Positions 3,383-56,800 of a stretch of 64,000 nt of DNA are shown here, piece after piece. Position 1 is the first letter of the stretch. Each line of letters opens with the position of its first letter. The stretch is taken from the NCBI GenBank assembly GCA_964016885.1, contig OZ024743.1:119226001-119290000 (forward strand), written 5' to 3'. The position numbers and the translations under genes were made by a program. The notes beneath the pieces were generated by a model that was given only the letters and a program-made list of their open reading frames with translations, ran no database searches and was not told the DNA's origin. Source of the DNA: Eledone cirrhosa (lineage: Eukaryota).

Positions 3383-4019
3383 AGTAAAATAATGGTTTCT
3401 GATTTAGGCACAAGGCCAGCAATTTGAAGGGGACGGGATAGTCGATTAAATCTACACCAGTGCATTACTGGTACTTTATTTTATCGACCCCGCAAGGATG
3501 AAAAGCAAAGCTAACCTCGGCGGGATTTGAACTCAGAACTTAAAGGGCCGTAACTCTATGCTGAAAAGTATGTTGTCCAGCGATCTCCCGATTCTGCCAA
3601 TCCAGCGCCAGTAAAATAATTGTTTCTACTTTTGGCACAAGGCCAACAAATACCCCAGTGCATTACTGGGACTTTATTTGATCGACCCTGTAATGATGAA
3701 AGGAAAATTAACCTCGGTGGGATTTGAACTCAGACCGTAATGGGCCGTAACTCTATGCTGTAAGGCATGGCGTCCAACTCTCAACTGATACTGCCAATCA
3801 ACTTACCTCCGACAGTAAAATAATTGTTTCTACTTTAGGCACAAGGCCAGCAATTACCCAGTGCATTACTGGTACTTTATTTTATCGACCCCGTAAGGAT
3901 GAAAGGCAAAGTCAACCTCGGCGGGATTTGAACTCAGATCGTAAAGGGACGTAACTATGCTGGAAAGCATGGCGTCCGACCCTCTACCGATACTGCCAAT
4001 CCACCGACAGTAAAATAAT
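3383..4019 (-). mobile_element. Three head-to-tail tRNA-derived SINEs
   Basis: Each ~190-220-bp unit reads on the minus strand: A-box-like TGGCAGWATCRG, B box GAGTTCAAATCC, central CTTTCATCCTTACGGGGTCGATAAAATAAAGTACCAG-like domain, tail GGCCTTGTGCC..AGAAAC. AGTAAAATAAT recurs at all four junctions. Confidence 0.9.
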
Positions 4020-9442: not shown

Positions 9443-9854
9443 ACAGCCATTCCAAATAATTGTTTCAACGTTTGGCACAAGGCCAGCAATTACCCAGTGC
9501 ATTACTAGTTCTTTATTTTATCGACCCCGTAAGGATGAAAGGCAAAGTTAACCTCGGCGGGATTTGAACTCAGAATGGCAAGGGCCGTAACTCTATACGT
9601 CAAAGCATGGCGTCCGACCCCCTACCGATACTGCCAATCCACAGCCATTCCAAATAATTATTTCTACTATTGGCACAAGGCCAGCAATTACCCAGTACAT
9701 TACTGGTACTTTATTTTATCGACCCCGTAAGGATGAAAGGCAAAGTCAACCTCGGCGGGATTTGAACTCAGATCGTAAAGGGACGTAACTATGCTGGAAA
9801 GCATGGCGTCCGACCCTCTACCGATACTGCCAATCCACAGCCATTCCAAATAAT
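9443..9854 (-). mobile_element. Two tandem tRNA-derived SINEs of different subfamilies with a triplicated target sequence
   Basis: Full-length units ~9456-9642 and ~9654-9838. ACAGCCATTCCAAATAAT occurs at 9443, 9641 and 9837. Confidence 0.9.
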
Positions 9855-22861: not shown

Positions 22862-23823
22862 CTTTCTTTATTTGCCACAGGGGCGTACAAAAATGGGACA
22901 TTACAGACGTGACGGCGGGGGTTTTACATAAAAATAACATTAATAAATAACAATAAACTATATATAATAAAATAACAATTGAAATCCCCCATAGGGGGTA
23001 ACGTTACTGCGGGGTTATTTTACACCCCGTGGATAGAACAACCCTCAACACCAGGAACACGTTTTGTAGATGTTTCTGTCTTCCCTCTGTTTATCTTCTT
23101 CAACCTACAGGTTTATTTACGGAGACGGCCCATTCATTCGGGCCATTTTCGCCACATTCACGAACCTTTCAGCCAATTTACTGGGATGTAGCACCTCTCT
23201 TTCCACTCTCACCTTCCTCCTGAGGTGATACTTAAAGAGGGGGATAAGTTGTTGTCCGGAGAGAAAGTTGTTTGCCCTCAGTCCTTTTAACCTCGTCCAC
23301 CATATTACCTCTTTCGCCATAGCAACCAGACAGGGGAAAACCGTCTCTCCTTCGTTCTTAAATGAAGGCGGCGGGGTGATCCACACGATGGACTCGGCTG
23401 ACAACTGGATGCGTCCCACACGTGACAGCAGCTGTTCGACATAATTCCACAGGTCGGTCACCCCTGGGCACTGAACAATTGCATGCAGAACGGTTTCGAT
23501 GTCCTGCTCGCATCTTGGACAGGTCCTTTTGGCAGGATCTCTGCCGGGGCGTCCGTGCCTGTAGATTTTGTCTCGAACTGGTAGAGCTCCTCGGTAGTAC
23601 TGCCAGGCCAGAGACCTCTGAAAGTTATCCATAGGCCCTGGACGGAAAGTCCTCCCGAACAGACTGGTCAGTTTGTCCTCCTCGATGCCTAGAGTTTCCC
23701 CGAGAACGTCGTCGCACTTATCCTCCACTAATCCCCTATAGAATGTCGTCGAAGTGGAGTCTCCGCTGATTGCCGTTTCCGCTTGGTAGAGGGCTGTGAG
23801 CGCCTGTAGGCACTCGAGGTACC
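22862..23823 (-). mobile_element. 5'-truncated L1/Tx1-like LINE (C-terminal zinc-binding region plus 3' UTR)
   Basis: ORF 23117-23728 contains LAW..YRGALPV and CPRCEQDIETVLHAIVQC (CCHC, zf-RVT-like). The 3' UTR ends CCCCTGTGGCAAATAAAGAAAG next to a microsatellite. A similar tail fragment lies at ~58840-58920 (+). Confidence 0.8.
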
Positions 23824-25159
23824 ATAGATAGATAGATAGTTAGATAGATGAGTGTTTTGGTAATAGAGGTAAGATGCATTCACATTTCTAATATCTAATT
23901 AGAATTTGCTTTGCTCTGACTTGACACAAGGAAATGATACGGCATTGCGGTTGTGCGGGTTGGGTAGTTTTGACATAAGTGAGGCGGAGCAGGTCATGGC
24001 AAGATGTTGTCCCAGTGAAGTGGTGTAGTGGGGTTTAATGTGGTTTGATGCGGTGTGATGCGCTGTTAAGTGTGTGTATGAGGAAAAATTAGTCCCAAAA
24101 TGATTGATGAATATGTCTATTACTCTCAAAGGAAAAAAGAAGACATCATTTCGTATTCAAATTGGCATGTCAATGTAATAGGTCAGAGACACCAATAATA
24201 TAGTAATAACAATGAAGCTGGTTCAATACCAGTACTGGACAGTGATACTATTATTTAACAAGGGTTAGTATTATTATTGTTATTTATATGTTGGTGTTGT
24301 TTGTATATTTATTTATTTATCCCATTTTTATTGGTTTATTTGTTTATCTTTATTTTGTTGTCTTTATTTGCTTTGGCATATTTTGTCTGTGGTTGTATGT
24401 GTGCGAATGTACCTACGTTTATTTAACTGTATCTTTGCGTGTATCTGTATATATGTGGCATTTGTAGGTGTATGTGATTGTCTCTGCGTGCGTAAATGTG
24501 CCAGTATGTGTATTTGTATATGCACGTGGATACGTGTAAGTATGCGTAAGTTTGAGTGACCGTATTTTTGTATGTATCAGTGTGTGTGTGTGTGTGGGGG
24601 GGTGTAAGTGTGTATATTTATGTGTAGGTCTGTTTATATCCGTGTATATGCACGCTTAAGTCTGCATACTGTGCGGGCATTTGTGTATGTTTCTGTGTGT
24701 TACGTAAGTATGTATGTGTGTGTGTCTGTGTGTGTGGAGTCGAGATGCTATGGGAAACTTCATTGGGGTCAGAGAAGTTGTATCTTGATTTTTGAATTGG
24801 AAAGCTATGACAATTTTACTGCTTTTGATAGACAGCAGTTGTAGATGAGGCAATCGGTGCGGGTGGCCATCACAATACCCTCATCATTTTATACTTCAAG
24901 CAATCGTTTACTGTTTTCACTAAAACAGATTGGTATTCAATCGTTGCTGTTCTTACTTGGGCTGTTGCTGTTGTTATTGATGCTAATACTGTCTTTGTTG
25001 CCACCGTTTCGCTGCTGTTCAGCTAGTTATTTATTTCAATGTTGCTTGTGATATCCACTATATGAGATTACCATCTGTATTATAGTTACTTGGCTTCTGC
25101 AATCACCTCTCTCTCTCTCACTCTCTCTCTCTCTCTCCCCTCTTCACACACACACACCC

Positions 25160-26210: not shown

Positions 26211-26353
26211 TATATGGTTGTTTTATCAACTAGTCTAAACTATATATAACTGAAAAAAAAAACACGTGGGTGAAAACACGGTAGACACAAACACGAGGAT
26301 AAATCCCGCTCATCAGCTGTCTTCTGTGGATCACTATAATTCGAATGCATTAA

Positions 26354-26772
26354 TCCCGTCGAGGTTATATTTGCCTTTCATCCTTAGGGGTCGATAAAAT
26401 AAAGTACCAGTAATGTACTGGGTATTTGCTGGCCTTGTGCCAAAAGTAGAAACAATTATATATATATATGCTTTGACGCATAGAGTTACGGCCCTTGCCA
26501 TTCTGAGTTCAAATCCCGCCGAGGTTAACTTTGCATTTCATCCTTACGAGGTCGATAAAATAAAGTACCAGTAATGTACTGGGTAATTGGTGGCCTTGTG
26601 CCGAAAGTAGAAACAATTATATATATATGCTTTGACGCATAGAGTTACGGCCCTTGCCATTCTGAGTTCAAATCCTGCCGAGGTTAACTTTGCCTTTCAT
26701 CCTTATGGGGTCGATAAAATACAGTACCAGTAATACACTGGTAATTGCTGGCCTTGTGCCAAAAGTAGAAAC

Positions 26773-26778
<6 letters not shown>
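26354..26778 (+). mobile_element. Three tandem 5'-truncated SINEs
   Basis: Units 2 and 3 both start at ATGCTTTGACGCATAGAG after a short TA run. Confidence 0.85.
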
Positions 26779-26845
<67 letters not shown>

Positions 26846-28503: not shown

Positions 28504-31160
28504 ATGAAACGCGTAGATTACTTCCCTTGCTTTTATCGAGAATCTAATTGTAATACGTGACGTATTCTATTCTATAGCGATTAGGTCTTCAAAATGTTTA
28601 TTATAAACATACAGAATATTTTCGAATATTCTATGTCTATATTCACATATATATCGCTATTTCAGAGCATTTATTCCAATTTCTAATTTCTGCCGGACCG
28701 GCAACCGCTCTTTCAAACCAGTTCCTGTACACAGCTAAGTATTCTATAAGTCTCTAGCTGTGTCATTCTCGATAAAAGCACTGGATATGTAGTCCTGATG
28801 ATTTCTAACGAGAATGAAACGCGTAGATTACTTCCCTTGCTTTTATCGAGAATCTAATTGTAATACGTGACGTATTCTATTCTATAGCGATTAGGTCTTC
28901 AAAATGTTTATTATAAACATACAGAATATTTTCGAATATTCTATGTCTATATTCACATATATATCGCTATTTCAGAGCATTTATTCCAATTTCTAATTTC
29001 TGCCGGACCGGCAACCGCTCTTTCAAACCAGTTCCTGTACACAGCTAAGTATTCTATAAGTCTCTAGCTGTGTCATTCTCGATAAAAGCACTGGATATGT
29101 AGTCCTGATGATTTCTAACGAGAATGAAACGCGTAGATTACTTCCCTTGCTTTTATCGAGAATCTAATTGTAATACGTGACGTATTCTATTCTATAGCGA
29201 TTAGGTCTTCAAAATGTTTATTATAAACATACAGAATATTTTCGAATATTCTATGTCTATATTCACATATATATCGCTATTTCAGAGCATTTATTCCAAT
29301 TTCTAATTTCTGCCGGACCGGCAACCGCTCTTTCAAACCAGTTCCTGTACACAGCTAAGTATTCTATAAGTCTCTAGCTGTGTCATTCTCGATAAAAGCA
29401 CTGGATATGTAGTCCTGATGATTTCTAACGAGAATGAAACGCGTAGATTACTTCCCTTGCTTTTATCGAGAATCTAATTGTAATACGTGACGTATTCTAT
29501 TCTATAGCGATTAGGTCTTCAAAATGTTTATTATAAACATACAGAATATTTTCGAATATTCTATGTCTATATTCACATATATATCGCTATTTCAGAGCAT
29601 TTATTCCAATTTCTAATTTCTGCCGGACCGGCAACCGCTCTTTCAAACCAGTTCCTGTACACAGCTAAGTATTCTATAAGTCTCTAGCTGTGTCATTCTC
29701 GATAAAAGCACTGGATATGTAGTCCTGATGATTTCTAACGAGAATGAAACGCGTAGATTACTTCCCTTGCTTTTATCGAGAATCTAATTGTAATACGTGA
29801 CGTATTCTATTCTATAGCGATTAGGTCTTCAAAATGTTTATTATAAACATACAGAATATTTTCGAATATTCTATGTCTATATTCACATATATATCGCTAT
29901 TTCAGAGCATTTATTCCAATTTCTAATTTCTGCCGGACCGGCAACCGCTCTTTCAAACCAGTTCCTGTACACAGCTAAGTATTCTATAAGTCTCTAGCTG
30001 TGTCATTCTCGATAAAAGCACTGGATATGTAGTCCTGATGATTTCTAACGAGAAAGAAACGCGTAGATTACTTCCCTTGCTTTTATCGAGAATCTAATTG
30101 TAATACGTGACGTATTCTATTCTATAGCGATTAGGTCTTCAAAATGTTTATTATAAACATACAGAATATTTTCGAATATTCTATGTCTATATTCACATAT
30201 ATATCGCTATTTCAGAGCATTTATTCCAATTTCTAATTTCTGCCGGACCGGCAACCGCTCTTTCAAACCAGTTCCTGTACACAGCTAAGTATTCTATAAG
30301 TCTCTAGCTGTGTCATTCTCGATAAAAGCACTGGATATGTAGTCCTGATGATTTCTAACGAGAATGAAACGCGTAGATTACTTCCCTTGCTTTTATCGAG
30401 AATCTAATTGTAATACGTGACGTATTCTATTCTATAGCGATTAGGTCTTCAAAATGTTTATTATAAACATACAGAATATTTTCGAATATTCTATGTCTAT
30501 ATTCACATATATATCGCTATTTCAGAGCATTTATTCCAATTTCTAATTTCTGCCGGACCGGCAACCGCTCTTTCAAACCAGTTCCTGTACACAGCTAAGT
30601 ATTCTATAAGTCTCTAGCTGTGTCATTCTCGATAAAAGCACTGGATATGTAGTCCTGATGATTTCTAACGAGAATGAAACGCGTAGATTACTTCCCTTGC
30701 TTTTATCGAGAATCTAATTGTAATACGTGACGTATTCTATTCTATAGCGATTAGGTCTTCAAAATGTTTATTATAAACATACAGAATATTTTCGAATATT
30801 CTATGTCTATATTCACATATATATCGCTATTTCAGAGCATTTATTCCAATTTCTAATTTCTGCCGGACCGGCAACCGCTCTTTCAAACCAGTTCCTGTAC
30901 ACAGCTAAGTATTCTATAAGTCTCTAGCTGTGTCATTCTCGATAAAAGCACTGGATATGTAGTCCTGATGATTTCTAACGAGAATGAAACGCGTAGATTA
31001 CTTCCCTTGCTTTTATCGAGAATCTAATTGTAATACGTGACGTATTCTATTCTATAGCGATTAGGTCTTCAAAATGTTTATTATAAACATACAGAATATT
31101 TTCGAATATTCTATGTCTATATTCACATATATATCGCTATTTCAGAGCATTTATTCCAAT
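28504..31160 (+). mobile_element. Tandem array of 310-bp hammerhead-containing units (non-LTR retrozyme-like), ~8.6 copies
   Basis: GCGTAGATTA recurs at 28511, 28821, 29131, 29441, 29751, 30061, 30371, 30681 and 30991 (exact 310-bp period). The only variant I noticed is T>A at 30055. No ORF. Flanked by (GT)n and (TA)n. Confidence 0.92.
28765..28853 (+). ncRNA. Type I hammerhead ribozyme (first of 8 complete copies, repeating every 310 bp)
   Basis: Stem I GTAGTC(28789-94)/GATTAC(28826-31); core CTGATGA 28795-801; stem II TTCT-AACG-AGAA; GAAA 28816-19; palindromic stem III ACGCGT; GUA cleavage triplet 28823-25; distal 16-bp helix ATTCTCGATAAAAGCA/TGCTTTTATCGAGAAT. Confidence 0.9.
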
Positions 31161-46560: not shown

Positions 46561-46910
46561 ATCGCTATTTCAGAGCACACATACCAATTTCTAATTCATG
46601 CTGGGCCGGTACCGCTCTATATGTTAATGAGTTTAAACAGTTCATAAACATAACTGGAATTCTATAAGAATCCAGCTTCTTTAGCTTTCGGCAAAAGTGA
46701 AGAGGTATGTAATCTTGTCAACCACTTACAAGTGAGAAACGGTCAGAGTCGATTACTCCCCTTTTGGTTTTGCCGTGACTAAGTATGTGACGTTAGTCAC
46801 TACCTTAAAATTCATAACGAATGGCCTTCAAAATGTTTTTAAATATACATGCAGTATATTATTAAATATACAATACCTACATTGATATTATATACATCGC
46901 TATTTCGGAG
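46561..46910 (+). mobile_element. Diverged single-unit relative of the 310-bp retrozyme-like repeat (335-bp period)
   Basis: Shares ATCGCTATTTCAGAGCA, CCAATTTCTAATT, ACCGCTCT, ATTCTATAAG, GTGACGT and CTTCAAAATGTTT in the same circular order. Terminal redundancy ATCGCTATTTCRGAG. Degenerate HHR at 46709-46756. Confidence 0.8.
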
Positions 46911-48877
46911 AACCAATACACATATCTAATAGTAAGTGAAGAGTTATTGCTGTAATCGTTGTTTTTGTTTTAGCCTCAGGTCAATTCGGATTGGACAAAC
47001 ATTATCAAATACATACCAGCCGTAACGATCCCACCTATGTCTAGTGAATATTATATCACAGAATAATATAGACCATTCAAATAATATAGACCATTTTTCA
47101 GATAACGTTTAAGTGCAACACATAGTGACTTCTATAACACATACTATTGATACATACATGAATAAGATGCCTAGCTAAGTTTTATTTTATTTTATTCTAT
47201 ATTTTTATCTATTTAAAAACAGTATTTATATTTTTATGCAAAAGAGTACGATACTCACCAGTATTCAACAATCTAGATTCCCTACAATAAATCTCTATAT
47301 AAATAAATATCTCTTAACTTGAATAAAATAGTTATAACATTGAAAGATTTTTCAAACAATCTATTCCTAATTGTAAACACAAGTACCAATAGATTTAGTT
47401 GACAATATACACGGTGTATATAAAAAAACATAACATTGAACAATCTCAAATATAATATAACAATCTCAAAGGTACGTTAAATATATATAATTTCTCAAAT
47501 AATGTCAAATATGGAAGTTTAATAATTTACAATAATTTTTAAGTAATAGTTTAAAGCAAGTTGTAGAGAATTCTTTAGGTGAATATTGACACTATGAGGC
47601 ACTTGGATAATTGCTGTTCTTGTTCCAAAAGAAGAAACAATTAATAAAAATGTCAAGTTACTACGTTTAAGGAATACATTCTTAAATAAAGCAAACCAAT
47701 AAAAATGTTAAAGATAAGTAAATATCTTAAAGAACCACGTGGTTGTGAAGCGAATGTTTTACTGATATAGAAATATATTAATTTGGACATATCAAAAATA
47801 TATGTATCTATAATAATAGATTGTTGAAAATAAATCCCATAAGCAATGAATGATGGCTGACCTATGACCAAAAGGTTTCTTCGGCCGTGACGATCACATC
47901 TGTTTTCAGACAAATCGTACCATATGACTTGATTTATCCAGCGTGTTCTTGCTTTTGTTAAGATTGTAAGGTAAGATTTAACAGCGATGTGGCTTATATT
48001 CCGAAAACAGATCACCGCCCGCGTAGATATTCATTAAATGCCACTGATTGAAAATCTACTGCCACTCGATTTCTGAAAAATTCAAACACTCCAATGTGGA
48101 ATCCTCTTAATGTTCTGCACCTGCCTATTTTCAATGTAAAATGCCTCCACAGCTATTATTAAGTAAGTGCACAACAATATTTTTTTTTATTACGAATATA
48201 ACTTGGTACCGCATTTCTATTCTTCCCGTATGGTTGGGTGTTGGTTTCTTAATGAGAGACACTTTTTTGCTTCGACAAGATTTATATTCAAATCTGCTGG
48301 TTTCCCACACTCCCTCCACATCTTGTAATCTTGGTGGGCTTTGTCAATAACACCCGTATCAACTAGAAGACAGTTTGTACTGGGATTCCTAGTATCAGTT
48401 GCCTCTTTTACTGCTAACCGAGGGAGGAAAAATAAGCACACACAATCCTTTAGTTTTTCTGGTTATCTAGTGGGAGAAATGTAGAAAGTTATCTTAATAC
48501 TCGAGAACGAACGGTGCATCACATTATACTCCACTTGACGACCCTAAGAGAGAGGCAGTGGTGCTAAATCGGGTGATGAATTAAATTTACCAACCCAGGA
48601 ACAAATATGGTCGCTTCGACTGGCTTCCGAGGAAATTGTATACCACATTTCCGTTACAAGGCTTTTATAGAAACAGGATTATTGTAAAGGACACTTGCCT
48701 AAGCTTGTAGTAATTCGGTTACCTGTGACTGATTTAGTAATATCCTACGAAGAGAGAGGTCTGTCTCCGGACTATTCTATTTGATGTTTAACTCCAGCCG
48801 TTGTTGTTATTGCTTAATTCTCAGTGAGATTCAATTGAGCCTTCTTATGATCAAAGACATCCCAACCTTAACCCCAT

Positions 48878-53964: not shown

Positions 53965-56800
53965 GTAATAATAATAAATTTGAAGACTAAAATCCAAAGA
54001 GGGCTCGATAAGGGTAAATATATATCAAATATATAAGAACCGTAGAGAAAATATTTATTAAATAACAGATTAAAGTTTAAGCAAAGAATCGCTGCTTTCA
54101 CCCTTAACAGTATCTTCTGAAACTAACAAAGTCAATCTGTAAACGCAGAACTGGATATTTCAAAAAACGTTGCAACCGGAGGAAGACAGGAAGACGATAC
54201 TTTGGTTCGTGGAAACGTTCGCTGGCTAAGAACGGGAAAAAACGAATATAATACGTCATTAATAGGAGCGGTGAAAAACAATACGCGCAAAGACAGAACC
54301 ACGTTTATAGTATAATAGAGGTCGTAGACTAATGTTCTCTTCGGTGGTGCATAGAGACGTTCTCTGGCGATGAACGAAAAAACCGAAGATAATACGTCAT
54401 ATGTGGAGCGTGGAGAACAATAGCACGCAAAGACAAAACCACGTAAATGTTATAGCAGAAGTCGTAGACTAAATTCTAACTAGGAGGCCGAATGAATCTC
54501 CGCTACGGAGTTAAGAACAAAGTAAATAAATACAATACAGAAGTAATAGAAATAAATAAATACATACACGCAAACAGAAACGTACATACACAAGCATACT
54601 CAAAAACTTACCATAGGTAAACAAAACCACGCACATATAAATATGTGTGTGTGTGTAAGCGTGTATACAAATAAATAAATAATTATATAAACGTATATAA
54701 ATAAATAAATACGTATATAACAAGCGCACACACATACCTACATGTAAATACACGAATGTTCGGACACGTAAGTCAACCAAAATATGAAGTACACATATAC
54801 ACACGCCCTACATACGTACGAACCTGCATACTCACACAGACGCAAAACTCCCGTATACACATAGTCGAACCATATGTACCAGAATATATAAAAAAATTAT
54901 ACGCCATAACAATCAAATATACGTACGAGAAGGTATACGTACCTTCACAAAACATACGGATAATATATACTTACCTATGCAAATAAGTAAAGGTATAAAC
55001 AAAAGATATACTTAGCTCCCACATCGAGACGTAAAATATCCACGTATAGATCGTACTATCCGTTAGGGTATAACGTGGGGCTGTAATACAGAAAAGTTTT
55101 GTGCAATTTATGTTTACAAGCCGAAATTGCCTCAGATTTTTTATTTAAGATGTGGTCTGTGGCGTAGAGTATTTCCAGGGCCTCAGCGGCGCAGAGGTCA
55201 CATGGTCTTTTATTTCCGTTATACGATCTAGCCCTCGCTAGGATCTCCCAGTGTAACTTATATTGGGTGTGGTTGTCTTTTAGACTCCAGATATAAGCTG
55301 AAAGTGACGTCATATTCCTTCTTAGAGGGTAACGAAAAGAATGGGTATGCATGTAAAGACGCTGCTTGAATCTATTGGTGGTTAACCCTATGTAGGCCCT
55401 ACGGGACGTGGGTGTTACAACCTTACATTTGTAGACAATGTTACTAGAGAGGCATTTACCGGATAGGGGCAATCAACCCGATTCCTACAATTACAGTTAG
55501 TACTAACTACAGGGTTGCACGTGTTCCTACGGCTAGGTAGTTTAGCTAAATTTGAAGCTGTGATGTTATGTACAAGGTTAGGAGTTGTAGAGTAAGAAAT
55601 TTTAATAGTATTTCTATTAAAAAGTTTACTCTATTTATGTGTAGGGGGAAAATGCTTCGTAATAAGGGAAAGAAAGATCTTAGCTAATGGTGTGGCCACC
55701 TCAATATTATATGGTGGGTTATACCAACAAATGCGACGGGATCTATTTCTTCTAGGTCTATTTTCGTACTCTGTATATGCTTCCTTATCGACAAATCCAC
55801 TTCGAGCAAGAGCTTCATTGTAATAAGTGGAATGGTCGTTGAAAATACGCTCGTTGGTGGAAAGACGGGAAAGCCTCAACGAAACGTTTCTTACCAGGTT
55901 CTTGGTTATGCTGGCAGGATGGTTGGAATGCTTACTTATGTAATTAAGCGTATCATTCGGCTTTCTATACGGGTAATACAACCCATTCAATAGGTTGAGG
56001 GTAACGTCGAGGTAATTAACGACCGAGAGATTGGCCTCAACTTGTATAGAGAGGTTGAAGCCTTTAAAGAAGGCTGTGAGTTCTTTTCTGAACCTGTCGC
56101 AAGCACGAGGTCCGCACTTAGTCATGGTCAAAAGACCATCGTCACGGTACAAACCACCGCCCGCGTTGGGGAATTCGTCCTTGATAGAGAAAAGAAGGAA
56201 AAGGCCGATAAGATCAGTAACCTCCGCGTGGTTTTGTTTACCTATGGTAAGTTTTTGAGTATGCTTGTGTATGTACGTTTCTGTTTGCGTGTATGTATTT
56301 ATTTATTTCTATTACTTCTGTATTGTATTTATTTACTTTGTTCTTAACTCCGTAGCGGAGATTCATTCGGTCTCCTAGTTAGAATTTAGTCTACGACTTC
56401 TGCTATACCATTTACGTGGTTTTGTCTTTGCGTGCTATTGTTATCCACGCTCCACATATGACGTATTATCTTCGTTTTTTTCGTTCATCGCTAGAGAACG
56501 TCTCTATGCACCGAAGAGAACATTAGTCTACGACCTCTATTATACTATAAACGTGGTTCTGTCTTTGCGCGTATTGTTTTTCACCGCTCCTATTAATGAC
56601 GTATTATTCGTTTTTTCCGGTTCTTTGCCAGCGAACGTTTCCACGAACCAAAGTATCGTCTTCCTGTCTTCTTCCGGTTTTAACGTTTTTTGAAATATCC
56701 AGTTCTGCGTTTACAGATTGACTTTGTTAGTTTCAGAAGATACCGTTAAGGGTGAAAGCAGCGATTCTTTGCTTAAACTTTAATCTGTTATTTAATAAAT
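53965..56800 (-). mobile_element. Penelope-like retroelement (Neptune-type), 5'-truncated with an inverted duplication of its 3' region
   Basis: RT and GIY-YIG remnants on minus. 56226-56800 is the reverse complement of ~54052-54632. An extra ~85-bp tail is present only at the 53965 end. Both ends abut (TA)n. HHR-like motifs at 54074-54124 (-) and 56729-56779 (+). Confidence 0.9.
55056..56227 (-). pseudogene. Penelope-like RT/GIY-YIG polyprotein, C-terminal part, disrupted
   Basis: AEVTDLIG..GLYRDDGL (RT catalytic motif), VNYLDVTLNL, PYRKPN..YI...SNHP, WYNPPY, linker CNCRNRVDCPLSGKC, then NIVYKC..AYIGLT..FKQRLY.H (GIY-YIG). Premature TAG at 55631-33 and a 1-nt frameshift near 55468. Confidence 0.9.

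What the first reader, a model, noticed from the sequence alone, without database searches (positions are those of the whole stretch)
46561..46910. Diverged sister retrozyme-like monomer with structural covariation and a shared endpoint motif
Seen: a 335-bp unit colinear (circularly permuted) with the 310-bp repeat. Its HHR region is GTAATC-TTGTCAA-CCACTTACAAGTGA-GAAAC-GGTCAGA-GTC-GATTAC. Stem I is kept, stem II has a different sequence but still pairs (CACTT/AAGTG), and the distal helix is replaced by CGGCAAAA/TTTTGCCG. The core shows U3/A8 plus an A6>U change that is probably inactivating. This copy begins and ends at ATCGCTATTTCRGAG, and the big array also ends about 12 nt after this motif. 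Inference: the pairing is under selection, the family is old and diversified, and this conserved motif may mark the RT recognition or priming region.
Basis: partly seen in the sequence, partly recalled or inferred. Interest (0 to 1): 0.75.

Follow-up and report, generated by a model that had tools for sequence, protein, structure and literature searches.

The report
Dead sister retrozyme with Penelope tail
This is one decayed copy of an older lineage of a non-coding repeat that carries a hammerhead (self-cutting RNA) fold, and copies across the lineages end at two fixed points on either side of one conserved motif, which likely marks where a Penelope-type jumping-gene enzyme starts copying the RNA into DNA.

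Summary
46561-46930 is a 335-bp unit plus about 25-35 nt of terminal redundancy, 66% identical to the 310-bp array unit. It belongs to a dispersed older lineage (B) of a retrozyme family with at least seven other lineages in this genome. B folds as a type I hammerhead with a fixed U3-A8 core. A6>U and a broken stem III are private to this copy, which is predicted dead. Across lineages 17 of 31 hammerhead pairs change on both sides. The endpoint motif is the longest invariant block of four lineages. It is not a 5' boundary (8 of 90 B 5' ends nearby, 7.3 expected). It lies between two fixed 3' ends, and 50 of 52 head-to-head insertions pair one short with one long end. That is the Penelope 'tail', shown in vitro for another element to span two reverse-transcription starts. 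Only the young lineage has arms of 2 or more units (23 of 34, against 0 of 240). The helper clade (Hydra or Neptune type) is unresolved. The class is known, and this scan already reported the array lineage and its two-armed ends elsewhere in this genome.

The parts
46561..46895 (+). One full 335-bp retrozyme unit of lineage B, 5'-truncated at the first base of the motif; the copy is 90.6% identical to the lineage consensus over 370 nt
46561..46577 (+). 5' copy of the 17-nt motif, the longest invariant block in lineages A-D; predicted to hold the 3' strand of helix P1 (46563-46568) and the 5' strand of helix P2 (46571-46576)
46600..46619 (+). Conserved small hairpin P3 (46600-46609) and predicted 3' strand of P2 (46614-46619), just downstream of the long end
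46687..46777 (+). Type I hammerhead domain: long stem I (distal helix, 3x1 internal loop, proximal GTAATC/GATTAC at 46709-46714 and 46751-46756)
46715..46721 (+). Core positions 3-9: U3/A8 is lineage-wide; A6>U at 46718 is private to this copy
46723..46734 (+). Stem II CACT-TACA-AGTG, with a C.A mismatch at 10.1/11.1
46739..46750 (+). Stem III, broken by private CC>GA at 46746-46747; the lineage's predicted cleavage site is after GTC at 46750
46814..46872 (+). Predicted 5' strand of P1 (46814-46819, one decay change) and two AT-rich hairpins
46885..46897 (+). TA-rich zone where 'short' 3' ends fall in other copies (inferred RT start 1)
46896..46930 (+). 3' tail: second motif copy up to the 'long' end (inferred RT start 2); exact end 46919 or 46930
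28504..31160 (+). Young lineage A array, 8.6 units of 310 bp, C3-G8 core, minimal palindromic stem III, long (tail) end followed by (TA)n

Best explanation
The stretch is a decayed genomic copy, predicted inactive, of an older lineage of a non-coding hammerhead repeat (non-LTR retrozyme), likely inserted by the endonuclease and reverse transcriptase of a Penelope-like element (PLE) that would start copying at one of two fixed sites flanking the conserved motif. Shown: homology to the array; lineage structure; compensatory pairing; private lesions; two fixed 3' ends about 26-31 nt apart; one of each end per head-to-head insertion; scattered 5' ends; (TA)n targets; the same two-end layout in protein-coding PLEs of this genome. 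Inferred: a tandem transcript or RNA circle was the template; a PLE protein dimer nicked both strands of AT-rich DNA and primed internally, one strand at the short site and the other at the long site; in this single-armed copy synthesis began at the long site and ran a little over one unit. The motif is likely conserved because it forms the RNA structure around the start sites.
For: Covariation: 17 of 31 pairs with a change on both sides, 0 of 500 shuffles as high, slid controls 1-6; near-intact B copies fold by energy alone into the three-stem hammerhead, z -8.3 and -5.3. 3' ends: A 34 of 34 arms, B 43 of 90 pieces, C 43 of 72, D 64 of 78 at the two sites, about 8% expected. Short+long pairing 15 of 15 (A), 10 of 11 (B), 6 of 6 (C), 19 of 20 (D) among insertions with both outer ends typed. 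Hydra-type and Neptune-type PLEs here have the same two ends and (TA)n targets. Craig 2021 passages describe 5' truncation, inverted partners and a 30-40-bp tail on one end. Frangieh 2024 shows in vitro that the tail is the sequence between two internal RT starts and that both DNA strands are cut and extended. U3-A8 is a published natural core variant.
Against: No autonomous PLE with this exact tail was found; the PLE sample was 30 Hydra-type, 30 GIY-YIG and 20 further loci out of many thousands. No target-site duplication was found at this copy and its 3' flank is not a (TA)n run. 31 further head-to-head insertions in B-D had at least one outer end that could not be typed. Covariation around the motif is weak (5 of 33 pairs, 29 of 500 shuffles) and RNAalifold prefers a different pairing there. 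The shuffle control ignores relatedness. Rfam RF00163 matched neither the window nor four lineage copies at E<=1.
Confidence: 0.85

Rival explanations
1. The unit is the solo terminal repeat (pLTR) or truncated 3' end of an autonomous PLE, not a separate non-autonomous element.
For: Same ends and targets as PLEs; B copies are mostly about one unit or less; PLE pLTRs here also carry hammerheads, some with U3/A8.
Against: After the tail the sequence returns to the same unit, head to tail, up to 1.9 units in B-D and 27 in A, with no ORF. PLE protein hits in the loci searched were fragments away from the units' 5' ends. The hammerhead has a long canonical stem I.
Confidence: 0.07
2. A satellite spread at the DNA level (extrachromosomal circles, unequal exchange), with the hammerhead a relic.
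For: Lineage A arrays are 98-100% homogeneous; no RNA data are in hand.
Against: Fixed 3' ends with scattered 5' ends, short+long pairing in 50 of 52, dispersal over many chromosomes, and compensatory RNA pairing between lineages.
Confidence: 0.05
3. A SINE-like element mobilised by a LINE, with a (TA)n tail.
For: Dispersed, 5'-truncated, sometimes 5'-inverted copies ending in simple repeats.
Against: Both arms of an inverted insertion carry a proper 3' end, at two different internal sites; arms exceed one unit; no LINE-like 3' homology was noted, though none was searched for systematically.
Confidence: 0.03

Closest known systems
Metazoan non-LTR retrozymes (Cervera and de la Pena 2020, PMC7229834; parts 2-4 of 6 read), especially the axolotl pair Rtz_331 / Rtz_353
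   Same: Non-coding 310-335-bp unit, low GC, type I hammerhead; two or more related families in one genome, one with a minimal palindromic helix III and others with a longer helix III; mismatch at the base of helix II.
   Different: At least eight lineages here, with the C3-G8/U3-A8 swap among them; lineage B was found only as copies under two units; cleavage and circular RNA are untested here; the paper's parts read do not map insertion ends.
Retrozymes as non-autonomous PLE derivatives (Li, Clavereau, Pollet 2026, bioRxiv 10.64898/2026.07.22.740005; parts 1-3 of 5 read)
   Same: PLE link; monomer, dimer and multimer forms; families with a high share of monomers.
   Different: Their evidence is co-occurrence and pLTR homology in vertebrates; here it is insertion-end anatomy, and no clear pLTR homologue was found.
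Poseidon_Ac internal initiation (Frangieh et al. 2024, PMC11167929; parts 1-2 of 4 read)
   Same: Two adjacent ends defining a tail; AT-rich targets; both strands used.
   Different: Autonomous element tested in vitro; here a non-coding passenger, by inference from genomic ends only.
Hydra and Neptune clades of PLEs (Craig et al. 2021, bioRxiv 10.1101/2021.04.23.441226; passages read)
   Same: 5' truncation, inverted partner, tail on one end, (TA)n bias, hammerheads in pLTRs; both types are present in this genome with long RT-endonuclease frames.
   Different: They encode RT and GIY-YIG endonuclease; tails measured here are 64-88 nt (Hydra type) and about 36-55 nt (Neptune type) against about 26-31 nt for the retrozyme.

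Membership tests
Type I hammerhead ribozyme (lineage B) | Conserved core with 3-8 pair, GAAA, NUH and three stems | tested here: met
   41 of 54 parsed B copies read TTGACAA; near-intact copies fold into all three stems; U3-A8 is published
Type I hammerhead ribozyme (this copy) | Intact core and stem III | tested here: not met
   A6>U at 46718 and CC>GA at 46746-46747; stem III not formed
Type I hammerhead ribozyme | Compensatory base pairing | tested here: met
   17 of 31 pairs, 0 of 500 shuffles, slid controls 1-6; R-scape itself not available
Type I hammerhead ribozyme | Match to Rfam RF00163 | tested here: not met
   No hit in the window at gathering score; none on four lineage copies at E<=1 (the one RF00163 hit lies elsewhere in L298)
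Type I hammerhead ribozyme | Self-cleavage | not testable with these tools
   Needs transcription assay
Non-LTR retrozyme | Non-coding unit of 150-450 bp with low GC and one hammerhead per unit | tested here: met
   310-335 bp, about 31-34% GC locally, no ORF
Non-LTR retrozyme | Tandem organisation | tested here: inconclusive
   Met by lineage A (23 of 34 arms of 2 or more units); lineage B reaches only 1.56 units head to tail, matching the 'monomer' class of the 2026 preprint but not its 'active' definition
Non-LTR retrozyme | Expressed as linear and circular RNA | not testable with these tools
   No usable RNA run
Non-LTR retrozyme | Target-site duplication longer than 4 bp when present | tested here: inconclusive
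   None found at this copy; most other copies sit in microsatellites
PLE-mobilised element | 5' truncation and inverted 5' partner | tested here: met
PLE-mobilised element | Tail of about 30-40 bp on one end only | tested here: met
   about 26-31 nt; short+long in 50 of 52 typed insertions
PLE-mobilised element | Microsatellite target bias | tested here: met
   All 20 arm ends are followed by TA-rich runs; not so at this copy
PLE-mobilised element | Shared terminal sequence with an autonomous partner | tested here: inconclusive
   Partial likeness to Hydra-type tails and a 26-nt match to one Neptune-type 3' region; no exact partner
PLE-mobilised element | Internal RT initiation at the two ends | not testable with these tools
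   Needs in vitro assay as in PMC11167929

The most novel reading that the evidence does not exclude
The ribozyme sets the copy number of each insertion. The dimer-only hammerhead of lineage A keeps the RNA circle closed, so the PLE enzyme rolls up to 27 rounds, whereas lineages with a 3-5-bp stem III reopen their circles and leave under two units. All lineages dock a Hydra-type reverse transcriptase through one conserved two-helix RNA element that brackets both start sites.
Probability: 0.22. Interest if true: 0.75.

Novelty: new member of a known kind. Interest (0 to 1): 0.45.

Why it matters
The copy itself is a fossil. Its value is comparative. It opens a series of at least eight lineages of one retrozyme in one genome, which gives real covariation for the hammerhead and shows that the tail region outlasts the ribozyme sequence. 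That ties animal retrozymes to the two-site internal initiation known for one PLE and names a 17-nt motif and two start sites to test with purified enzymes. The contrast between long young arrays and short older copies gives a test of whether circles are the template.

Tried and rejected
Rfam gave no hammerhead match to these units. A DNA search of the genome with the array unit returned nothing because common words are skipped; patterns were used instead. Expression: no RNA holder listed. Runs X1 and X2 each hold a 340-nt contig of the array unit, but their kind is not on record and tandem DNA gives the same contig, so it was not used. 'Copies begin at the motif': rejected; the apparent clustering came from the query's own ends. 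'Cleaved linear monomers are the templates of B-D': no clear pile-up of 5' ends near the cleavage site (B 4 of 90, C 5 of 72, D 8 of 78 in a 19-nt window). 'Older A copies are short', the test of array collapse: only 9 matches, all in 99-100% identical arrays, so it is uninformative. An exact-tail PLE partner: 2 pattern matches, not inspected further; none in the PLE loci compared. Pairwise likeness of the A and B motifs to Hydra tails was weak. No Naiad-type frame was recognised among the 50 GIY-YIG loci inspected. A covariance model was not built; pair counting was used instead.

Full report
Observation. The motif ATCGCTATTTC stands at 46561 and 46896 and once in every 310-bp unit of the array at 28504-31160. 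The stretch aligns with the array unit at 66% over 358 columns, score 109 against at most 38 in 1000 block shuffles. The host is a 3.0-Gb animal genome; that it is an octopod is my recall from its repeats and was not tested.

The copy belongs to a dispersed family. A search of the own genome gave 1773 candidates, of which 40 were scored; the best places on many chromosomes are 81-89% identical. In the alignment of 30 copies the core reads TTGACAA, stem II CACT-TACA-AGTG and stem III ACGGT-(1 or 3 nt)-ACCGT. A6 is intact in 28 of the 29 other copies. Contigs of run X3 show A at 46718 in 885 of 898 depth units. The window copy differs from the lineage consensus at 35 of about 370 columns, among them A6>U and CC>GA in stem III. 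It folds without stem III (z -1.85), whereas L020 and L107 fold into the full three-stem hammerhead (z -8.3, -5.3). So the lineage had a complete ribozyme fold and this copy is predicted dead. That A6 is essential is recalled knowledge.

Lineages. An exact 32-mer of the array hammerhead has 4090 matches, a relaxed descriptor 13,901, the lineage B 32-mer 29, and a U3/A8 descriptor 145; reversed controls gave 0. I sorted 137 distinct units by regular expressions into A (array), B, C, D, E, F, G and H, with 5 unassigned; F, G and H rest on 2-4 copies each. Consensus identities run from 69-73% (A against B-D) to 91% (B-C). Median identity of copies to their consensus is 99.8% (A), 96% (D), 93% (C) and 92% (B).

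Covariation. On 17 genomic copies, chosen as the best 1-3 per lineage plus the window copy, 17 of 31 named pairs have a change on both sides, including the 3-8 pair (13 U-A, 4 C-G). No shuffle of 500 reached this and slid controls gave 1-6. RNAalifold finds stems I and II by itself but not stem III, whose length varies. The shuffle ignores relatedness, so this is not a p-value. C3-G8 goes with U.U at 10.1/11.1 (A, D) and U3-A8 with C.A (B, C, E, G, H). U3-A8 is described for Schistosoma PLE hammerheads (PMC4209133, passages), and a U.U base of helix II for axolotl (PMC7229834).

Ends. I mapped 19 A loci (the first arrays listed on contig C1, plus the window), 41 B, 40 C and 39 D loci. Most B and all C loci were picked by hammerhead patterns and so are unbiased for ends (7 B loci came from a 101-nt hammerhead query); D loci were picked by a 246-nt query and are biased towards longer arms; two duplicate loci were dropped. 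3' ends fall at two sites, in the TA run just before the motif or 24-34 nt into it: A 34 of 34, B 43 of 90, C 43 of 72, D 64 of 78 pieces, about 8% expected. In head-to-head insertions with both outer ends typed, one is short and one long in 50 of 52; 31 more in B-D had an untyped end. 5' ends are not enriched at the motif (A 2 of 34, B 8 of 90, C 5 of 72, D 2 of 78; expected 2.8, 7.3, 5.9, 6.3). The window copy is single-armed with a long end, and no target-site duplication was found.

Meaning of the motif. Craig et al. describe a 30-40-bp tail on one end of PLE insertions. Frangieh et al. show with purified Poseidon protein that the tail is the sequence between two internal RT starts, that both DNA strands are cut and extended, and that ribozyme activity is not needed for insertion in vitro. 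PLEs of this genome show the same layout: three Hydra-type families (713-719-aa frames, CxCx5C linker) with ends 64-88 nt apart, and Neptune-type families with tails of about 36-55 nt. The 17-nt motif is the longest invariant run of lineages A-D and persists with changes in the older lineages. Folding each consensus puts it in two helices, P1 and P2, with pair probabilities 0.5-1.0. One P2 pair is A-U in 96 of 106 A-D copies and G-C in 5 of 11 older copies. Overall covariation there is weak (5 of 33 pairs, 29 of 500 shuffles) and RNAalifold prefers another pairing, so the fold is a prediction.

Helper. Unresolved. For Hydra type: every Hydra-type end is followed by a GCTC...GAGCAC-like stem; B matches 9 of these 10 letters in register (20 of 3000 shuffles) but A only 8 (211 of 3000); the older motif matches the tail of a further pLTR-like repeat with no ORF found (4 of 5000 shuffles, best of 18 comparisons). 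For Neptune type: closer tail length, U3/A8 hammerheads, and a 24-of-26 match of B to one Neptune 3' region (0 of 200 shuffles, absent in a sister copy and for A). My odds: Hydra 0.5, Neptune 0.3, other 0.2. The Hydra lead came from scan note e1-8805697.

Array or monomer. Arms of two or more units are 23 of 34 in A and 0 of 240 in B-D (maxima 27.3, 1.56, 1.69, 1.94). A's stem III can form only as a dimer, B's and E's also as a hairpin, and PMC4209133 notes that dimer-only hammerheads spare monomeric circles. Against this link: C and D hairpins score 0 kcal/mol yet their copies are short, 5' ends do not pile up at the cleavage site, and age is confounded, since old arrays could have collapsed by recombination. 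No older A copies were found to separate the two.

Novelty. The class and its PLE link are in print. Six searches listed no paper on a cephalopod retrozyme or on mapping retrozyme ends; supplements of PMC7229834 were not opened and those of the preprints are closed, and either may list this family. This scan already reported lineage A and its two-armed ends several times; my end mapping preceded that look-up. Look-ups by this sequence and by words found no note on the older lineages. Verdict: a real but dead copy; a new member of a known kind; useful as the comparative key to the family.

Noticed in passing
window 53970-56800: Decayed Hydra-type PLE on the - strand (RT thumb and GIY-YIG fragments, CxCx5C linker) between inverted terminal repeats, one ending in (TA)n and the other with an 88-nt tail; the same family has 713-aa frames elsewhere.
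   Followed up: partly
L250-L269: Three Hydra-type PLE families have two fixed 3' ends, each followed within 2-10 nt by a GCTC...GAGC(A/C)C stem with loops of 8-70 nt.
   Followed up: partly
L401:580-1333, L402:7633-8343: A pLTR-like repeat whose minimal hammerhead core is nearly identical to lineage A's and whose tail hairpin is ACTC...GAGT-AC; no ORF found in the fetched flanks.
   Followed up: partly
L290-L309, L332-L351: Lineage D is closer to B and C (82-87%) than to A (69%) yet has A's C3-G8 core and U.U pair and a different proximal stem I: a second core switch or a recombined ribozyme.
   Followed up: no
L353, L354, L355, L359 (contig C1): Lineage A arrays differ from each other at N7, 10.1 and loop II while each array is uniform, as expected if each insertion was copied from one template.
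   Followed up: no
L221, L225, L231, L234, L246: Neptune-type PLEs here carry minimal U3/A8 hammerheads with the palindromic stem III ACCGGT.
   Followed up: partly
L178:1498-1796: An old lineage G copy with A's palindromic stem III holds two hammerheads in tandem, 253 nt apart; a single case.
   Followed up: no
window 3453-4019, 9443-9854, 26352-26788: Short tandem copies of a 160-200-bp SINE-like repeat; the SINE label is recalled.
   Followed up: no
window 23117-23839: 240-aa frame on the - strand with a weak zf-RVT match below the curated cut-off, probably a LINE remnant.
   Followed up: no
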